Positions 11,510-63,135 of a stretch of 64,000 nucleotides of DNA are shown here, piece by piece. The stretch comes from Flaccisagitta enflata (Eukaryota): contig OZ231126.1 in assembly GCA_965153355.1 (NCBI GenBank), positions 3,472,001 to 3,536,000 on the forward strand, given 5' to 3'. The notes below the pieces were generated by a model that worked only from the letters and a program-made list of their open reading frames with translations, was not told where the DNA came from and did not search any database. Each line of letters opens with the position of its first letter. Position 1 is the first letter of the stretch. A program made the translations under genes and the position numbers.

Positions 11510-12011
11510 TGTTTATCTTTTGTTTGTTTGTTTTTTTCAGAGGTTTTTGTGAAGTGAGCGAAGATGTCCCTAAAACTGAAGGTGGCATTTTTAGTCGCGG
11601 ACTAGCGACTCTATAAGAGGCTTTGTCCGTCCGTCGGTCGGTCGGTCGGTCGGTCGGTCGGTTGGTCCGTCCGTCCGTCCATCACGCTCGAGTCAATAAG
11701 CGGGAAAACAAGCATTTCCGCCCCTGCCCACCCGTCCGCGACTAGTATTGGCCTTGTATCCGGCCTTGTTTGTTTATCTTTTGTTTATCTTTTGTTTTCA
11801 GAGGTTTTTGTGAAGTGAGTGAAGATGTCGCTGAAACTGAAGGTGGCATCTTTTGTTTATCTTTTGTTTATCTTTTGTTTATCTTTTGTTTATCTTTTGT
11901 TTTCAGAGGTTTTTGTGAAGTGAGTGAAGATGTCGCTGAAACTGAAGGTGGCATCTTTTGTTTATCTTTTGTTTATCTTTTGTTTATCTTTTGTGTATCT
12001 TTTGTTTTCAG
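11510..12011 (+). repeat. Three extra tandem copies of the talin start-exon acceptor plus first ~45 nt (including the ATG)
   Basis: TTTTCAGAGGTTTTTGTGAAGTGAGYGAAGATGTCSCTRAAACTGAAGGTGG at ~11534, 11795 and 11900, and the true copy at 12005. Confidence 0.92.
11589..11770 (+). mobile_element. DINE-1/HINE-like element (family A; other copies at ~3163-3325, 3358-3497, 19235-19812, 20364-20514, 32941-33145, 41626-41763, 52147-52314, 60602-60809)
   Basis: 5' TTTTTAGTCGCG-n5-GCGACT inverted repeat, (GTCG/GTCC)n microsatellite, 3' CGCGACT plus GGCCGTGTATCCGGCC hairpin, inserted in T runs. This is the architecture of Helentron-associated interspersed elements. Confidence 0.7.
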
Positions 12012-12034
12012 AGGTTTTTGTGAAGTGAGTGAAG

Positions 12035-12149
12035 ATGTCGCTGAAACTGAAGGTGGTGGCGTTAAACGGAAGTTTGACAAAAACAATCGAATTCCGGAAT
12101 TCAGATTTGGTCTTTGACGCCGCAAGAAAAATACAAGCTAAAATCCCAG
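12035..12149 (+). CDS. TLN: Talin coding exon 1 (FERM F0 start)
   Basis: Acceptor TTTTCAG ends 12011, ATG 12035. MSLKLKVVALNGSLTKTIEFRNSDLVFDAARKIQAKIP aligns with the talin N-terminus (LSLKI...KTMQF...VYDACRIIRERIP). Phase-1 donor GTGAAT at 12150. Confidence 0.88.
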
Positions 12150-12159
12150 GTGAATGATA

Positions 12160-60276: not shown

Positions 60277-62384
60277 AATGTAGATGTATATATGGAGAAA
60301 TGGATGTACATTAAGTGAGTTTGTGGTGAAGTAATGAAACGTAAATGAATTCATAGACGTTGAATCTGGCTTGATTCGCGGCGATAAAGAACCATTATCA
60401 TGAAGTAATGTGAAGTTGACCCGTTTGAACACGGGATCTGGACCGATTTATAGCTAGCTTCAGTGAGTTACGGTCAAGCTTGTAATTGTAGACTCGGTAG
60501 TTTTTTTATGATCGCAGAGTAATATCAAATTCTCTATTAATACTGAAATTGAGAGTACACATGCACCTCAGAGAACGATATGTGGACATGTATTTTGTGG
60601 GTTTTTAGTCGCGGACTAGCGACTCTATAAGAGGCTTTGTCCGTCCGTCCGTCCGTCCGTTGGTCCGTTGGTCCGTCCATCACACTTTACTTTTTCAGCG
60701 TTTTTGAGCTTTCTTGCCTTTCTGCTCCTGCCCAAATGATCAGCTGACCTCAAATATGGCCCCTGCCCTCCCACACGCGACTGGGGTAGCCGTGTATCCG
60801 GCCTTGTTTAATTACATTTCCTTACTCTCGTAGCATTGTGAACGAATCAAATGAATGTCCCAATGTTTTATCAATATTAACTCATATTTACTATAAACAT
60901 GTGTAAAAAAGAGAGCCGCTGGGACAGCTTAAAATGAGGGAGATACCGTGTATCTTTCATTAATTTCAAAATTGTTTGATCTTTGGATTTTTTTTTTTCT
61001 AAAACTTAAGTGGAAAGCAAAAAATAATTTTTAATCAAGGTACAACAGAACAACAATTTCTTTTTTTGATTTTTTTTTCGTCTTCAATACTAAAGCTTAT
61101 ATTTTCTTTATAATTCAGCATATGAAATTGTTATGATGAGAAAATCAAAGAACATAAACTTGGCGGCATATGAATTCTAGTGTGCTACAGCATTTGCCAA
61201 TGTAAAAAAAAATAAAACAAAAAGAAGTTATCATCTCGAATTGTCATTTTACTTCGTTTTGTCTGCTTTTTTGTCTTTTACGCAACTTATATCTCATCAA
61301 TACGTGTGAATGAGTAATGGTGTCAATGGAACATGCATTTGCTATTGTTTGCTCTTTCATAGTCTACTTATTTGAATATCTGCGTGTTTGCCCCTTTTAG
61401 AACGTTAAATCGCCCTGCAGAAACACTGTTTTACAATTTCATTCATTTGCAAGAAAATTTTGTCTCTCTCTCTCTCTCTCTCTCTCTCTCTCTCTCTCTC
61501 TCTCTCTCTCTCTCTCTCTCTTTTCTTTTTTATCCTTTTGGTGCTTGGATTTTTCATCGATGAATTTTCAATTCCTAGTCTACCGATCCTTTTTTTTCCC
61601 TTTTTTTCGAATACCGATTCAAACTTTGGTGTTCTACCAGATTCCAAAAGCGAACGAAATCCACCGAATACGAATGTTGTTCCAACTATTTCAAGTACAA
61701 AAAAAAAACAAAGAACAAAATGTTTGCCACTTGTTTGCCACTTTTTGCCTTGGAGGGAATTTGGAATTTTAGTAATGTTGCAAATTCTCTTTTATTTTTG
61801 GTTTGGCATTTAGAAATTCAGGTCTTTTACGTCATTCTTATACGTTTTTAGTGATGTCGTGCCTTTTTTGCAAAAAGAAAAAAATGCTTGCCTCTTTGCT
61901 AAAGAAAAAATTATGCTTGCCTTATTCTTTTCTTACTGCTGTCTTTTTTTTCTTTTTTAGACATGCCACGCCAACCTGGCTCTTACAGTCAACTATTATT
62001 ATTTATTGATATACATACATTCCTTTTTTATAAATAGAAATAGTACTAATAACATTTTATTTGTAAAACATGATGCACAATAAAAAACTTTTTTATTTGT
62101 CATTGATGACAGAATTGTTGCATTCCAGGTTTCTCCACAACGAAAAATACTCAATTTCAAAGCTGCTCTGATGAGAAAAAAAACCAAAAAAAAATACAGC
62201 AATAATTTTAGCCATTCCATTAACAATCTGTGATAACTGTAAAAAGATCACCAACAATACTCCAAAACATAACAAAAACAGCAAAAAAAAACCAAAAACA
62301 GCAAAAAAACATAAGACAAAAACGAACAAATTGACAAAAAACAAAACAAAACAAACAAAACAAACAACAACATCAAAACAAAAG

Positions 62385-62744
62385 ATGACGTCTGTATTTT
62401 CGTTCGAAGATTTGCCGATTGTTTGTCACGCTTGGAACCCAGATGCCTCTCTTCTTGCCATCTCTCAAAACTCAAACGAAATCAAAATCTACGCTAGAAA
62501 CAACAACAACAACAACGACAGCAATGATGCGGATCCCTTCAAGCTGCTGCACACGCTCGTCGAGCATACGGGCAAAGTGTTGAGCTTGGCTTGGAGTCGC
62601 TCGTCGGATAAGCTGATATCCGGTGGCGCCGATCGAAACGCCTTCGTGTGGACGTTGGAGGAAAATGTGTGGAAGCCGAGGCTCGTCATTTTGAGACTGA
62701 AAAGAGCGGCGACGAGTGTTAAATGGTCACCCAATGAAAATAAG
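62385..62744 (+). CDS. ARPC1: Arp2/3 complex subunit 1 (p41-ARC, WD40), coding exon 1
   Basis: PIVCHAWNPD...LAISQNSNEIKIY...L.EH.G.V...AWS...DRNAFVW...WKP.LVILRLKRAATSVKWSPNENK. Donor GTGAAA at 62745. Confidence 0.95.
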
Positions 62745-63071
62745 GTGAAAGCAGGTTGTTGTTGTGGTTGTTGTTGTTGTTGTTGATACTTTGTTGTTGT
62801 TGTTGTTGTTGTTGTCGTTGTCGTTGTCGTTGTCGTTGTCGTTGTCGTTGTCGTCGTCGTTGTCGTGCCGTTGTTGTTGTTGCTGTTGTTGTTGTTGCCG
62901 TTATTGTTGTTGCTGTCGTTGTTGCCGCCATCTTGCCGTCGTCGTCGTCGTCGTCGTCGTCGTCGTTGCTGTTGCTGTTGTTGTTGTTGTTGTTATGTTG
63001 TTGTTGTTGTTGTTGTTGTTCTTGTTGTTGTTGTTCTTGTTGTTCTTGTTGTTGAGCTAATCTGCCGCGTC

Positions 63072-63135
63072 CCGTCATTTTGAGATTGAAAAGAGCAGCG
63101 ACGAGTGTCAAGTGGTCATTCAATGAAAAAAAGTT
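63072..63135 (+). repeat. Single intronic copy of the ARPC1 exon-1 3' end
   Basis: CGTCATTTTGAGATTGAAAAGAGCAGCGACGAGTGTCAAGTGGTCATTCAATGAAAAAAAG versus exon sequence 62684-62744. Confidence 0.9.

What the first reader, a model, noticed from the sequence alone, without database searches (positions are those of the whole stretch)
11510..63135. Recurrent 'splice-site echo': exon ends with intact splice sites tandemly copied into adjacent introns in three genes, on both strands
Seen: seven junctions carry intronic copies of 30-90 nt of exon end plus its splice site (talin exon 1 acceptor, exon 2 donor, exon 4 donor, exon 5 acceptor, exon 5 donor; nested Ig gene 1 exon 1 donor; ARPC1 exon 1 donor). 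Acceptor copies always lie upstream and donor copies downstream, and none includes the exon's other splice site. Copies are diverged from each other and usually spaced by microsatellite. Inference: a genome-wide process duplicates exon-intron boundaries, and these half-exons are tolerated only if splicing works by strict exon definition. Alternatively they act as decoy, recursive or NMD-coupled sites. I know no named feature class that fits this regularity.
Basis: partly seen in the sequence, partly recalled or inferred. Interest (0 to 1): 0.88.

Follow-up and report, generated by a model that had tools for sequence, protein, structure and literature searches.

The report
Exon-boundary tandem repeats ('mirage' minisatellites)
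Several introns of a marine animal's talin-like gene and two neighbouring genes hold tandem copies of the adjoining exon end with its splice signal, a real and locally over-frequent feature already known as "mirage" minisatellites in amphioxus and in a few human genes.

Summary
All seven junctions carry intronic tandem copies of 27-93 nt of exon end plus its splice signal, 39 copies in all. The GT or AG is intact in 37 of 39. Acceptor copies lie upstream and donor copies downstream, and no copy reaches the exon's other end.

The pattern exceeds chance. About 1.1 boundary-spanning repeat families are expected among 18 in the window and 7 are seen (P=5e-5). The strictest count of 4 gives P=0.02.

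Contigs from the organism's own reads and from an independent marine metagenome contain the copies, so this is not a pure assembly artefact.

The polarity is geometric. Only the first donor or the last acceptor restores the reading frame, and 22 of 22 simulated echo-site uses gave early stops.

The class is already named: "mirages" in amphioxus (Adh3, globins, troponin C, PGBD5). Boundary-spanning minisatellites with silent pseudo-sites are also known in human F7, IFI6, CBS, LMNB2 and PDGFA.

Unusual here are the density, an intron built entirely from two such arrays, and microsatellites next to 11 of 18 exon boundaries.

Splice-site use could not be tested, because the RNA run had no reads on these exons.

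Verdict: new member of a known kind, of moderate interest.

The parts
12012..60273 (+). Talin-like gene. Nine exons: 12012/12035-12149, 18010-18152, 45157-45268, 45797-45922, 49406-49568, 50189-50296, 51663-51846, 52774-53056, 53741-60273.
   Evidence: The joined exons give a stop-free 2589-aa protein. Pfam finds IRS PTB, I/LWEQ, Talin_IBS2B and TLN1-like_RS. The F3 exon is 63-64% identical to other talins.
11507..12056 (+). E1 acceptor-side array. The 105-nt unit is an 11-nt repeat spacer, then TTTTCAG, then 45 nt of exon including the ATG and 7 codons. There are 3 echoes (exon starts 11541, 11802, 11907) upstream of the real copy at 12012.
   Evidence: TRF finds period 105 at 99%. blastn gives 94-100% identity. 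Acceptor status is inferred, with no RNA evidence.
18111..18555 (+). E2 donor-side array. The 71-nt unit is 42 nt of exon end plus GTATGT plus 29 nt of intron. The real copy is followed by 5 echoes with GT (18223, 18288, 18359, 18430, 18501) and 1 truncated unit.
   Evidence: TRF finds period 71 with 6.4 copies.
45839..46800 (+). E4 donor-side array. The 127-175-nt unit is about 83 nt of exon end, then GTGAAT, then (TGAA)n. There are 6 echoes (donors 46049, 46188, 46327, 46466, 46601, 46776).
   Evidence: TRF finds period 139. Identity is 97-100%. All 6 nine-base donor motifs are identical to the real one.
46904..49484 (+). E5 acceptor-side array. The 171-203-nt unit is (AATG)n, then a T-rich tract, then TTTTACAG, then 79-85 nt of exon start. 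There are 13 echoes (exon starts 46992 to 49211) upstream of the real copy at 49406. Three copies carry an in-frame stop.
   Evidence: TRF finds period 171-183. Word depth in X1 is about 1195 against 97-159 for single-copy pieces.
49541..50012 (+). E5 donor-side array. The 66-74-nt unit is about 27 nt of exon end, then GTTAGC, then (GACT/GACA)n. There are 7 echoes (49634, 49668 short, 49738, 49806, 49872, 49946, 50008).
   Evidence: One X1 contig of 530 nt spans 49455-49984 with 1 mismatch.
22953..23236 (-). Putative first exon of a nested minus-strand gene. It starts with ATG and ends GGAG|GTAAGA. It belongs to an ORF family in the window.
   Evidence: Sequence is. A paralogous ORF at 19978-20229 (-) is 37% identical (E=2e-12) and also ends ...DGG followed by GT. 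No Pfam or Atlas family was found.
22404..22952 (-). Donor-side array of the nested exon. The unit of about 154 nt is about 62 nt of exon end, then GTAAGA, then an 11-nt repeat spacer. There are 4 echoes, with GT intact in 3.
   Evidence: TRF finds period 154.
62385..62744 (+). ARPC1-like exon 1. The next exon starts at 63551.
   Evidence: Best matches among solved structures are ARPC1A and ARPC1B (E=6e-29 to 5e-27). Pfam finds WD40.
63075..63135 (+). Single diverged echo of the last ~60 nt of ARPC1 exon 1. It lies behind a (TTG)n tract, and the donor GT and the first intron bases are missing.
   Evidence: blastn gives 88% over 43 nt. The local score is 60 against a control maximum of 22.

Best explanation
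These are boundary-spanning minisatellites of the 'mirage' type.

Origin (inferred). A short tandem duplication had one breakpoint inside an exon and the other in the adjoining intron, usually in or beside a microsatellite that abuts the splice site. This copied 'exon end + splice signal + intron start'. Unequal exchange or replication slippage then multiplied the unit.

Why the polarity looks regular. In such an array only one copy stays joined to the rest of the exon. That copy is the first donor or the last acceptor, so every other copy lies in the intron by definition. Duplications that include a whole exon, or that lie inside one, would change the protein and are removed by selection. Only 'half-exon' arrays therefore survive.

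Function (inferred). The copies are young, at 0-10% divergence, and drift neutrally. The mRNA stays normal because the splicing machinery pairs the sites that give the shortest authentic exon. This follows the rule shown in human F7, where the most upstream donor is used. Occasional use of an echo site would give a transcript with an early stop.

Shown here: the anatomy, the polarity, the local excess at boundaries, the presence of the copies in independent DNA, and the frame consequences. Inferred: the mutational mechanism, neutrality, and which sites are actually spliced.
For: - Tandem units with sharp junctions and at most a few bases of microhomology.
- 39 echoes at 7 junctions, all on the intron side and none reaching the other exon end.
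- The splice dinucleotide is intact in 37 of 39.
- Donor motifs in echoes diverge no differently from the exon part: 7 of 153 against 41 of 603, p=0.36. Acceptor regions diverge slightly more: 16 of 304 against 28 of 1091, p=0.025. So there is no sign of selection for or against the sites.
- 3 of 13 E5 acceptor copies carry an in-frame stop.
- 22 of 22 simulated uses of talin echo sites gave a stop within a few codons. Only 4 of the 13 E5 acceptor echoes were among those tested. All 3 of 3 E1 echoes would add an upstream ORF.
- No eroded older echoes at the other 13 of 19 boundaries, as expected for fast-turnover minisatellites.
- One X1 contig spans the whole E5 donor array, and X1 word depth is about 8-12 times single-copy depth in the acceptor array. 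An independent metagenome run (X2) holds echo-type acceptor pieces.
- The literature describes the same structures at both kinds of boundary in amphioxus, with normal splicing by RT-PCR (PMC3087553, section 16 read; PMC3902484, one passage read). In human F7 the pseudo-sites stay silent (PMC1557585, abstract, introduction and discussion read).
Against: - A neutral by-product does not by itself explain why boundaries are hit 4-7 times more often than expected.
- Microsatellite adjacency does not fully explain the excess either. Only 1 of 76 microsatellite flanks outside the echo regions has a local copy, against 3 of 11 exon-side flanks (Fisher p=0.006).
- No RNA evidence shows that the outer sites are the ones used. 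The polyA RNA run had zero depth on exons 5-8.
- Copy-number variation between individuals, a hallmark of minisatellites, was not shown.
- Three of the arrays (E4 donor, E5 acceptor, E5 donor) are neighbours and may not be independent events.
Confidence: 0.7

Rival explanations
1. A boundary-directed mutational process. Something tied to exon edges raises the tandem-duplication rate exactly at exon-intron junctions across this genome. Candidates are transcription or splicing-coupled DNA damage, nucleosome edges, or fork stalling at microsatellites next to splice sites. This adds a cause to the best explanation and does not replace it.
For: Seven boundary-spanning families of 18 were seen against 1.14 expected (P=5e-5). 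The tail is P=4e-4 for 6 or more, 3.5e-3 for 5 or more, and 0.021 for 4 or more. Exon-side microsatellite flanks are echoed in 3 of 11 cases, against 1 of 76 flanks elsewhere. Microsatellites lie within 40 nt of 11 of 18 boundaries, against 15% by chance (p=1.2e-5). In amphioxus, authors also noted recurrence at boundaries and called the mechanism unclear (PMC3087553).
Against: This is one window, flagged because of this very pattern. If the three neighbouring arrays count as one event and the three weaker junctions are dropped, the excess is no longer significant (2 or more: P=0.32). The exon annotation of the nested genes is incomplete. No genome-wide data could be obtained.
Confidence: 0.25
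2. The echo sites are functional. They could act as decoy or buffer sites that bind U1 or U2AF, as partners in nested or recursive removal of the long intron, or as switches to unproductive stop-containing transcripts that tune expression.
For: Splice signals are intact in 37 of 39 copies. Use of any tested echo site gives an early stop. In intron 4 the 6 echo donors precede the 13 echo acceptors, so inner pairs could be removed stepwise without harm (inference). In human IFI6 and CBS the two nearest pseudo-sites are used (PMC1557585, introduction).
Against: Echo splice motifs are no better conserved than the neighbouring bases. At 2-7% divergence, about that many intact sites are expected by age alone. 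Unit sequences, lengths and copy numbers differ at every junction. Copies carry stops and substitutions. There are no RNA data.
Confidence: 0.1
3. Intron birth or remodelling in progress. The arrays are the raw material from which introns or new small exons are being made, as in the amphioxus 'mirage' model and the older tandem-duplication model of intron gain.
For: Intron 4 (45923-49405) consists wholly of the two arrays and their microsatellite. About 72% of intron 5 is echo array. Each E2 unit carries a CTAAC branch-like motif, a pyrimidine tract, an AG, 30 nt of exon-derived sequence and a GTATGT. On paper this is an in-frame 30-nt mini-exon between 41-nt intervals.
Against: The geometry is the reverse of the classic model. 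The 5' part of intron 4 copies the upstream exon end and the 3' part copies the downstream exon start. The shortest talin intron in the window is 528 nt, so 41-nt introns are unlikely to be spliced here. No orthologous loci were obtained to show that any boundary is new.
Confidence: 0.07
4. Assembly artefact, or chance overlap in a very repeat-rich sequence.
For: The window is extremely rich in tandem repeats: 158 TRF rows, with 13% of bases in microsatellites. Copy numbers were not verified on single long reads.
Against: A contig built independently from run X1 spans the E5 donor array. Word depth fits about 8-12 acceptor copies. An independent metagenome run holds echo-type pieces. The chance expectation is 1.1 families against 4-7 seen.
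Confidence: 0.04

Closest known systems
'Mirage' minisatellites of amphioxus. The term is attributed to Canestro et al. 2002 (Adh3). Further cases are globins BflGb6 and BflGb9, troponin C and PGBD5.
   Same: - Minisatellite-like tandem duplications whose unit joins part of an exon to the adjacent intron end with its AG or GT.
- Both 5' and 3' boundaries are affected.
- Units are 10-160 bp with 81-100% identity between copies.
- Only the copy joined to the exon is authentic.
- The authors suggested a possible general tendency of the genome and called the mechanism unclear (PMC3087553, section 16; PMC3902484, one passage).
   Different: - The organism here is unidentified and probably not amphioxus. 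This is an inference from the divergent talin rod and a 6.5-kb single rod exon.
- Density is higher: 7 junctions in 64 kb, and 5 of 17 boundaries of one gene.
- One intron is made entirely of a donor array plus an acceptor array.
- Most units carry a microsatellite spacer.
- Normal splicing and copy-number instability, shown in amphioxus, were not tested here.
- The 2002 paper itself was not available.
Human minisatellites whose first monomer spans an exon-intron boundary: F7 IVS7 (37 bp), IFI6 intron 2, CBS IVS13, LMNB2 (100 bp), PDGFA intron 4 (81 bp).
   Same: The authentic donor is followed by several identical or near-identical 5' pseudo-sites in the intron. In F7 only the most upstream site is used, by an oriented 5'-to-3' choice. 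The pseudo-sites are functional when the first is destroyed (PMC1557585).
   Different: The cases named in that paper's introduction are all on the donor side, at single loci in separate genes. Here there are also acceptor-side arrays, including 13 copies in one intron, for which no experimental rule was found in the papers read.
Intron gain by tandem duplication of an exon segment, and internal gene duplication creating introns. The sources are Rogers 1989, Zhuo et al. 2007 and Gao and Lynch 2009. I saw them only as citations in PMC3087553. A potato RdRp case (PMC4974935) was seen only as a search listing.
   Same: A short internal tandem duplication multiplies splice signals. Splicing across the duplicate can leave the mRNA unchanged.
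   Different: In that model the duplicated signals become the ends of a new intron inside a former exon. Here the copies sit inside introns whose ends are not exon duplicates in that geometry, and no new intron is demonstrated.

Membership tests
Mirage minisatellite (exon-intron boundary tandem duplication) | Head-to-tail tandem repeat | tested here: met
   TRF periods are 105, 71, 139, 171-183, 66-74 and 154. The ARPC1 case is a single spaced copy only.
Mirage minisatellite (exon-intron boundary tandem duplication) | Each unit joins part of an exon to the adjoining intron end, including the splice signal. Only one copy continues into the rest of the exon. | tested here: met
   There are 39 echoes at 7 junctions, with the splice dinucleotide present in 37.
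Mirage minisatellite (exon-intron boundary tandem duplication) | Both donor-side and acceptor-side boundaries occur | tested here: met
   Two acceptor-side arrays (E1, E5) and five donor-side arrays.
Mirage minisatellite (exon-intron boundary tandem duplication) | Copy-number instability between haplotypes or individuals | tested here: inconclusive
   Only contig word depth is available. X1 fits about 8-12 acceptor copies against 14 in the window. X2 coverage is too low to count copies.
Mirage minisatellite (exon-intron boundary tandem duplication) | Regular splicing not disturbed | not testable with these tools
Mirage minisatellite (exon-intron boundary tandem duplication) | Host is a cephalochordate (so far the only lineage for which the term is used) | tested here: inconclusive
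   The taxon was not determined. The nearest Atlas cluster is commonest in Echinodermata. The best talin F3 identity is 64%. ARPC1 is closest to mammalian ARPC1A among solved structures.
Boundary-spanning VNTR with silent 5' pseudo-sites (human F7 IVS7 type) | The first monomer spans the exon-intron boundary, so the donor is reiterated in the intron | tested here: met
   Arrays at the E2, E4 and E5 donors and at the nested exon donor. The nine-base donor is identical in 6 of 6 E4 echoes.
Boundary-spanning VNTR with silent 5' pseudo-sites (human F7 IVS7 type) | Only the most upstream donor is used in vivo | not testable with these tools
   There are no RNA reads on the gene. It is only inferred from the frame: all 18 of 18 simulated echo-donor uses give early stops.
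Intron gain by tandem duplication of an AGGT-containing exon segment | The new intron starts with a copy of the downstream exon start and ends with a copy of the upstream exon end | tested here: not met
   Intron 4 shows the opposite order. Copies of the upstream exon end, with GT, fill its 5' part. Copies of the downstream exon start, with AG, fill its 3' part.

The most novel reading that the evidence does not exclude
In this marine animal, outside the one lineage where 'mirages' were described, a process aimed at exon edges duplicates exon-intron junctions across the genome. It would be seeded by the microsatellites that abut most splice sites. It would be a main route by which introns lengthen: intron 4 grew to 3.5 kb from nothing but junction copies. 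It would also offer ready-made splice sites for new exons, new introns or stop-coupled regulation.
Probability: 0.2. Interest if true: 0.7.

Novelty: new member of a known kind. Interest (0 to 1): 0.45.

Why it matters
Arrays of 6 identical donors and 13 near-identical acceptors inside one intron are a natural test of how the splicing machinery picks one site among equals. That question is settled experimentally only for donors in one human gene. If the local excess at exon boundaries holds genome-wide, it would point to a mutational process tied to exon edges. It would also point to a simple way for introns to grow and for new splice sites to arise. In my five literature searches only single-gene reports turned up, with no genome-wide study. 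For annotation, such arrays can mislead gene predictors into calling false exons or wrong splice sites.

Tried and rejected
- **Earlier findings of this scan.** Five look-ups found nothing relevant.
- **RNA evidence.** The laid part, 49015-53065, showed zero depth of the polyA RNA run X18 on exons 5-8. The metatranscriptome X11 covered only interspersed repeats. This gives no information on splice-site use and is not evidence for or against it.
- **Related loci in metagenome contigs,** searched with exon 5: 596 pattern matches, none confirmed.
- **Homologue search with the rod region:** no hit. The search with the F3 exon gave 7 hits at 57-64% identity, without taxon names.
- **Rfam and tRNA scans of the window:** nothing.
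- **The 'Ig' identity of the nested ORFs:** no Pfam hit for 4 of 4 ORFs and no Atlas hit.
- **Array 19312-19665** (70-nt unit, minus strand) was considered as another echo. No exon could be found beside it, so it was counted as non-boundary.
- **Older, eroded echoes at the remaining boundaries:** none.
- **Microsatellite adjacency as the sole cause of the excess:** rejected as insufficient.
- **Selection on echo splice motifs:** no signal.
- **Canestro et al. 2002** is not held. Supplementary files of PMC3087553 (unit alignments and trees) were not seen, and they may bear on how similar the amphioxus arrays are.
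Full report
**What is in the window.**
The sequence is eukaryotic, about 40% G+C, and extremely rich in simple and tandem repeats. TRF returns 158 rows. Microsatellites of period 6 or less cover 13% of it.

Nine + strand exons between 12035 and 60273 join into one stop-free reading frame of 2589 codons. Exon 8 carries an IRS-type PTB domain. The 6.5-kb last exon carries I/LWEQ, Talin_IBS2B and a talin rod segment. 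The F3 exon is 63-64% identical to other talins. This is a talin-like gene with a divergent rod, whose residues 30-700 found no homologue.

Downstream, exon 62385-62744 is ARPC1-like (E=6e-29 to ARPC1A), and its next exon starts at 63551.

Inside talin intron 2, on the minus strand, lies a small family of ORFs. One of them (23236-22953) starts with ATG and ends GGAG|GTAAGA. A paralogue is 37% identical and ends the same way. Neither Pfam nor the Atlas supports calling them Ig genes.

**The observation.**
I probed every boundary of the two well-defined genes with 50 exon nt plus 15 intron nt. Six of 18 have nearby same-strand copies. A local-alignment test separates them cleanly. Scores are 60-106 for 6 of 19 boundaries, control maxima are 26 or less, and the other 13 sit at chance level.

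Counted by exact position:

| Junction | Echo copies |
|---|---|
| E1 acceptor | 3 |
| E2 donor | 5, plus one truncated unit |
| E4 donor | 6 |
| E5 acceptor | 13 |
| E5 donor | 7 |
| Nested minus-strand exon donor | 4 |
| ARPC1 exon 1 donor | 1 |

- That makes 39 echoes at 7 junctions.
- All acceptor echoes lie upstream and all donor echoes downstream of the real site. None reaches the exon's other end.
- The exon part is 27 to about 93 nt.
- GT or AG is intact in 37 of 39. The ARPC1 copy has lost its donor, and one nested copy reads GG.
- Six of the 7 arrays contain a microsatellite-like spacer.
- The talin E1 'acceptor' is inferred from a pyrimidine tract and AG, 23 nt before the ATG. No RNA supports it, and it could equally be a trans-splice acceptor.

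**More than chance?**
I listed all local duplication families between 11400 and 63600. There are 18 with units of 20 nt or more, and 7 span a boundary.

I then placed each unit at random in the collapsed sequence, rejecting placements inside an exon or covering a whole one.

- The mean expectation is 1.14 boundary-spanning families.
- The tail probabilities are P(7 or more)=5e-5, P(6 or more)=4e-4, P(5 or more)=3.5e-3 and P(4 or more)=0.021.
- Treating the three neighbouring arrays as one gave 5 observed against 1.0 expected (P=0.002).
- If the three weaker junctions are also dropped, only 2 remain and the excess is not significant (P=0.32).

So the excess is real on most counts, but it rests on one window that was flagged for this very pattern.

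**Microsatellites at splice sites.**
Eleven of 18 boundaries have a microsatellite within 40 nt on the intron side, against 15.3% of control positions (p=1.2e-5). This could funnel repeat-driven duplications to exon edges, but it does not explain everything. Only 1 of 76 microsatellite flanks outside the echo regions has a local copy, against 3 of the 11 exon-side flanks (Fisher p=0.006).

**Is the DNA real?**
One contig built from run X1 of the same organism spans 49455-49984, the whole E5 donor array, with one mismatch. Word depth inside the acceptor array is about 1195, against 97-159 on single-copy pieces, which fits roughly 8-12 copies. An independent marine metagenome run (X2) holds pieces of echo type, with the echo variants of the pyrimidine tract. 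One piece ends in the echo-specific bases after the exon break and continues into the repeat. X1 may be the source of the assembly, and copy numbers were not checked on single long reads.

**Anatomy and age.**
- Junctions between units are sharp, with at most a few bases of microhomology to the adjoining microsatellite.
- Copies differ from the real one by 0-10%.
- The 13 acceptor units fall into sub-families, a sign of several rounds of expansion. Three of them carry an in-frame stop.
- Donor motifs in echoes are no more and no less diverged than the exon-derived bases (7 of 153 against 41 of 603, p=0.36). Acceptor regions are slightly more diverged (16 of 304 against 28 of 1091, p=0.025). 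I see no selection to keep or to kill the sites.
- Intron 4 (45923-49405) consists only of the donor array, the (TGAA)n tract and the acceptor array. About 72% of intron 5 is echo array.

**Consequences of using an echo.**
Replacing the real site by an echo gave a stop within a few codons in 22 of 22 cases. These were 5 E2 donors, 6 E4 donors, 7 E5 donors and 4 of the 13 E5 acceptors. The 3 E1 echoes would each add an upstream ORF that starts with talin's first seven codons. Only the first donor and the last acceptor give the protein. This alone explains the polarity and the 'half-exon' rule.

**RNA.**
The only raw RNA run of the organism (X18, about 6% of it read) had zero depth on exons 5-8, and the metatranscriptome X11 likewise. 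Splice-site use is therefore untested. The gene seems silent or very weakly expressed in that sample.

**What is known.**
[quoted passage not shown] They were later found in globin genes at both acceptor and donor sides, with 150-160-bp units, 81-100% identity, 3 against 6 copies in two haplotypes, and normal splicing by RT-PCR. They were also found in troponin C and PGBD5. The authors suggested a general tendency of that genome, called the mechanism unclear, and proposed a route to intron gain (PMC3087553, section 16 read; PMC3902484, one passage).

In humans, minisatellites whose first monomer spans the boundary occur in F7, IFI6, CBS, LMNB2 and PDGFA. In F7 the identical pseudo-sites are functional but silent, because the most upstream donor is chosen (PMC1557585, abstract, introduction and discussion read).

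Exon definition alone does not explain the silence of the echoes. A nearest-site rule is needed, and for acceptor arrays I found no experimental rule in the papers read.

**Verdict.**
It is unusually dense, with a locally significant preference for exon edges whose cause is open. The taxon is unknown. It is an animal by ARPC1 and talin similarity, it is marine by the runs that hold it, and it is probably not amphioxus, which is an inference.

Noticed in passing
window 12150-63551 (18 exon boundaries of the talin-like and ARPC1-like genes): Microsatellites sit within 40 nt of 11 of 18 splice sites, against 15% expected (p=1.2e-5). These include non-pyrimidine motifs at donors, such as GTGAAT running into (TGAA)n, and at acceptors, such as (AAC)n ending in CAG before exon 9.
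   Followed up: partly
window 18111-18555: Each 71-nt E2 unit carries a CTAAC branch-like motif, a pyrimidine tract, an AG, 30 nt of exon-derived sequence and a GTATGT. On paper this is an in-frame 30-nt mini-exon between 41-nt intervals. Nothing shows that it is spliced.
   Followed up: partly
window 53741-60273: The whole talin rod (2178 codons) is one exon and is very divergent. Only 3 Pfam talin families hit, and weakly, and residues 30-700 found no homologue.
   Followed up: partly
window 50880-51020, 52140-52320, 11590-11760 and others: An interspersed repeat with a (GTCG/GTCC)n core has an enormous copy number. Word depth reaches millions, against about 100 for single-copy DNA. It is the only part of the laid stretch covered by RNA reads.
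   Followed up: no
window 28462-29842 and 42681-44054 (+): Two paralogous sets of long ORFs (60% identical over 149 aa) are nested in talin intron 2. They have no convincing Pfam family and may be a gene family or a mobile element.
   Followed up: partly
window 62490-62520: ARPC1-like exon 1 contains a coding (AAC)n run. This gives a poly-Asn insertion of 9 residues relative to mammalian ARPC1A.
   Followed up: no
window 40001-40165 and 40421-40565: Two 100% identical stretches of 110-145 nt lie about 340 nt apart, deep in intron 2.
   Followed up: no
window 9663-9755: An interstitial degenerate telomere-like (CCCTAA)n tract lies next to arrays of a 20-nt repeat. The same 20-21-nt repeat recurs at 21389, 24764 and 33893, probably inside a mobile element.
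   Followed up: no
window 5837-6128: A 32-nt tandem unit upstream of the talin gene contains CTAAC, TTCAG and GTGAGT in a row. This may be another junction-derived array of an unannotated gene.
   Followed up: no
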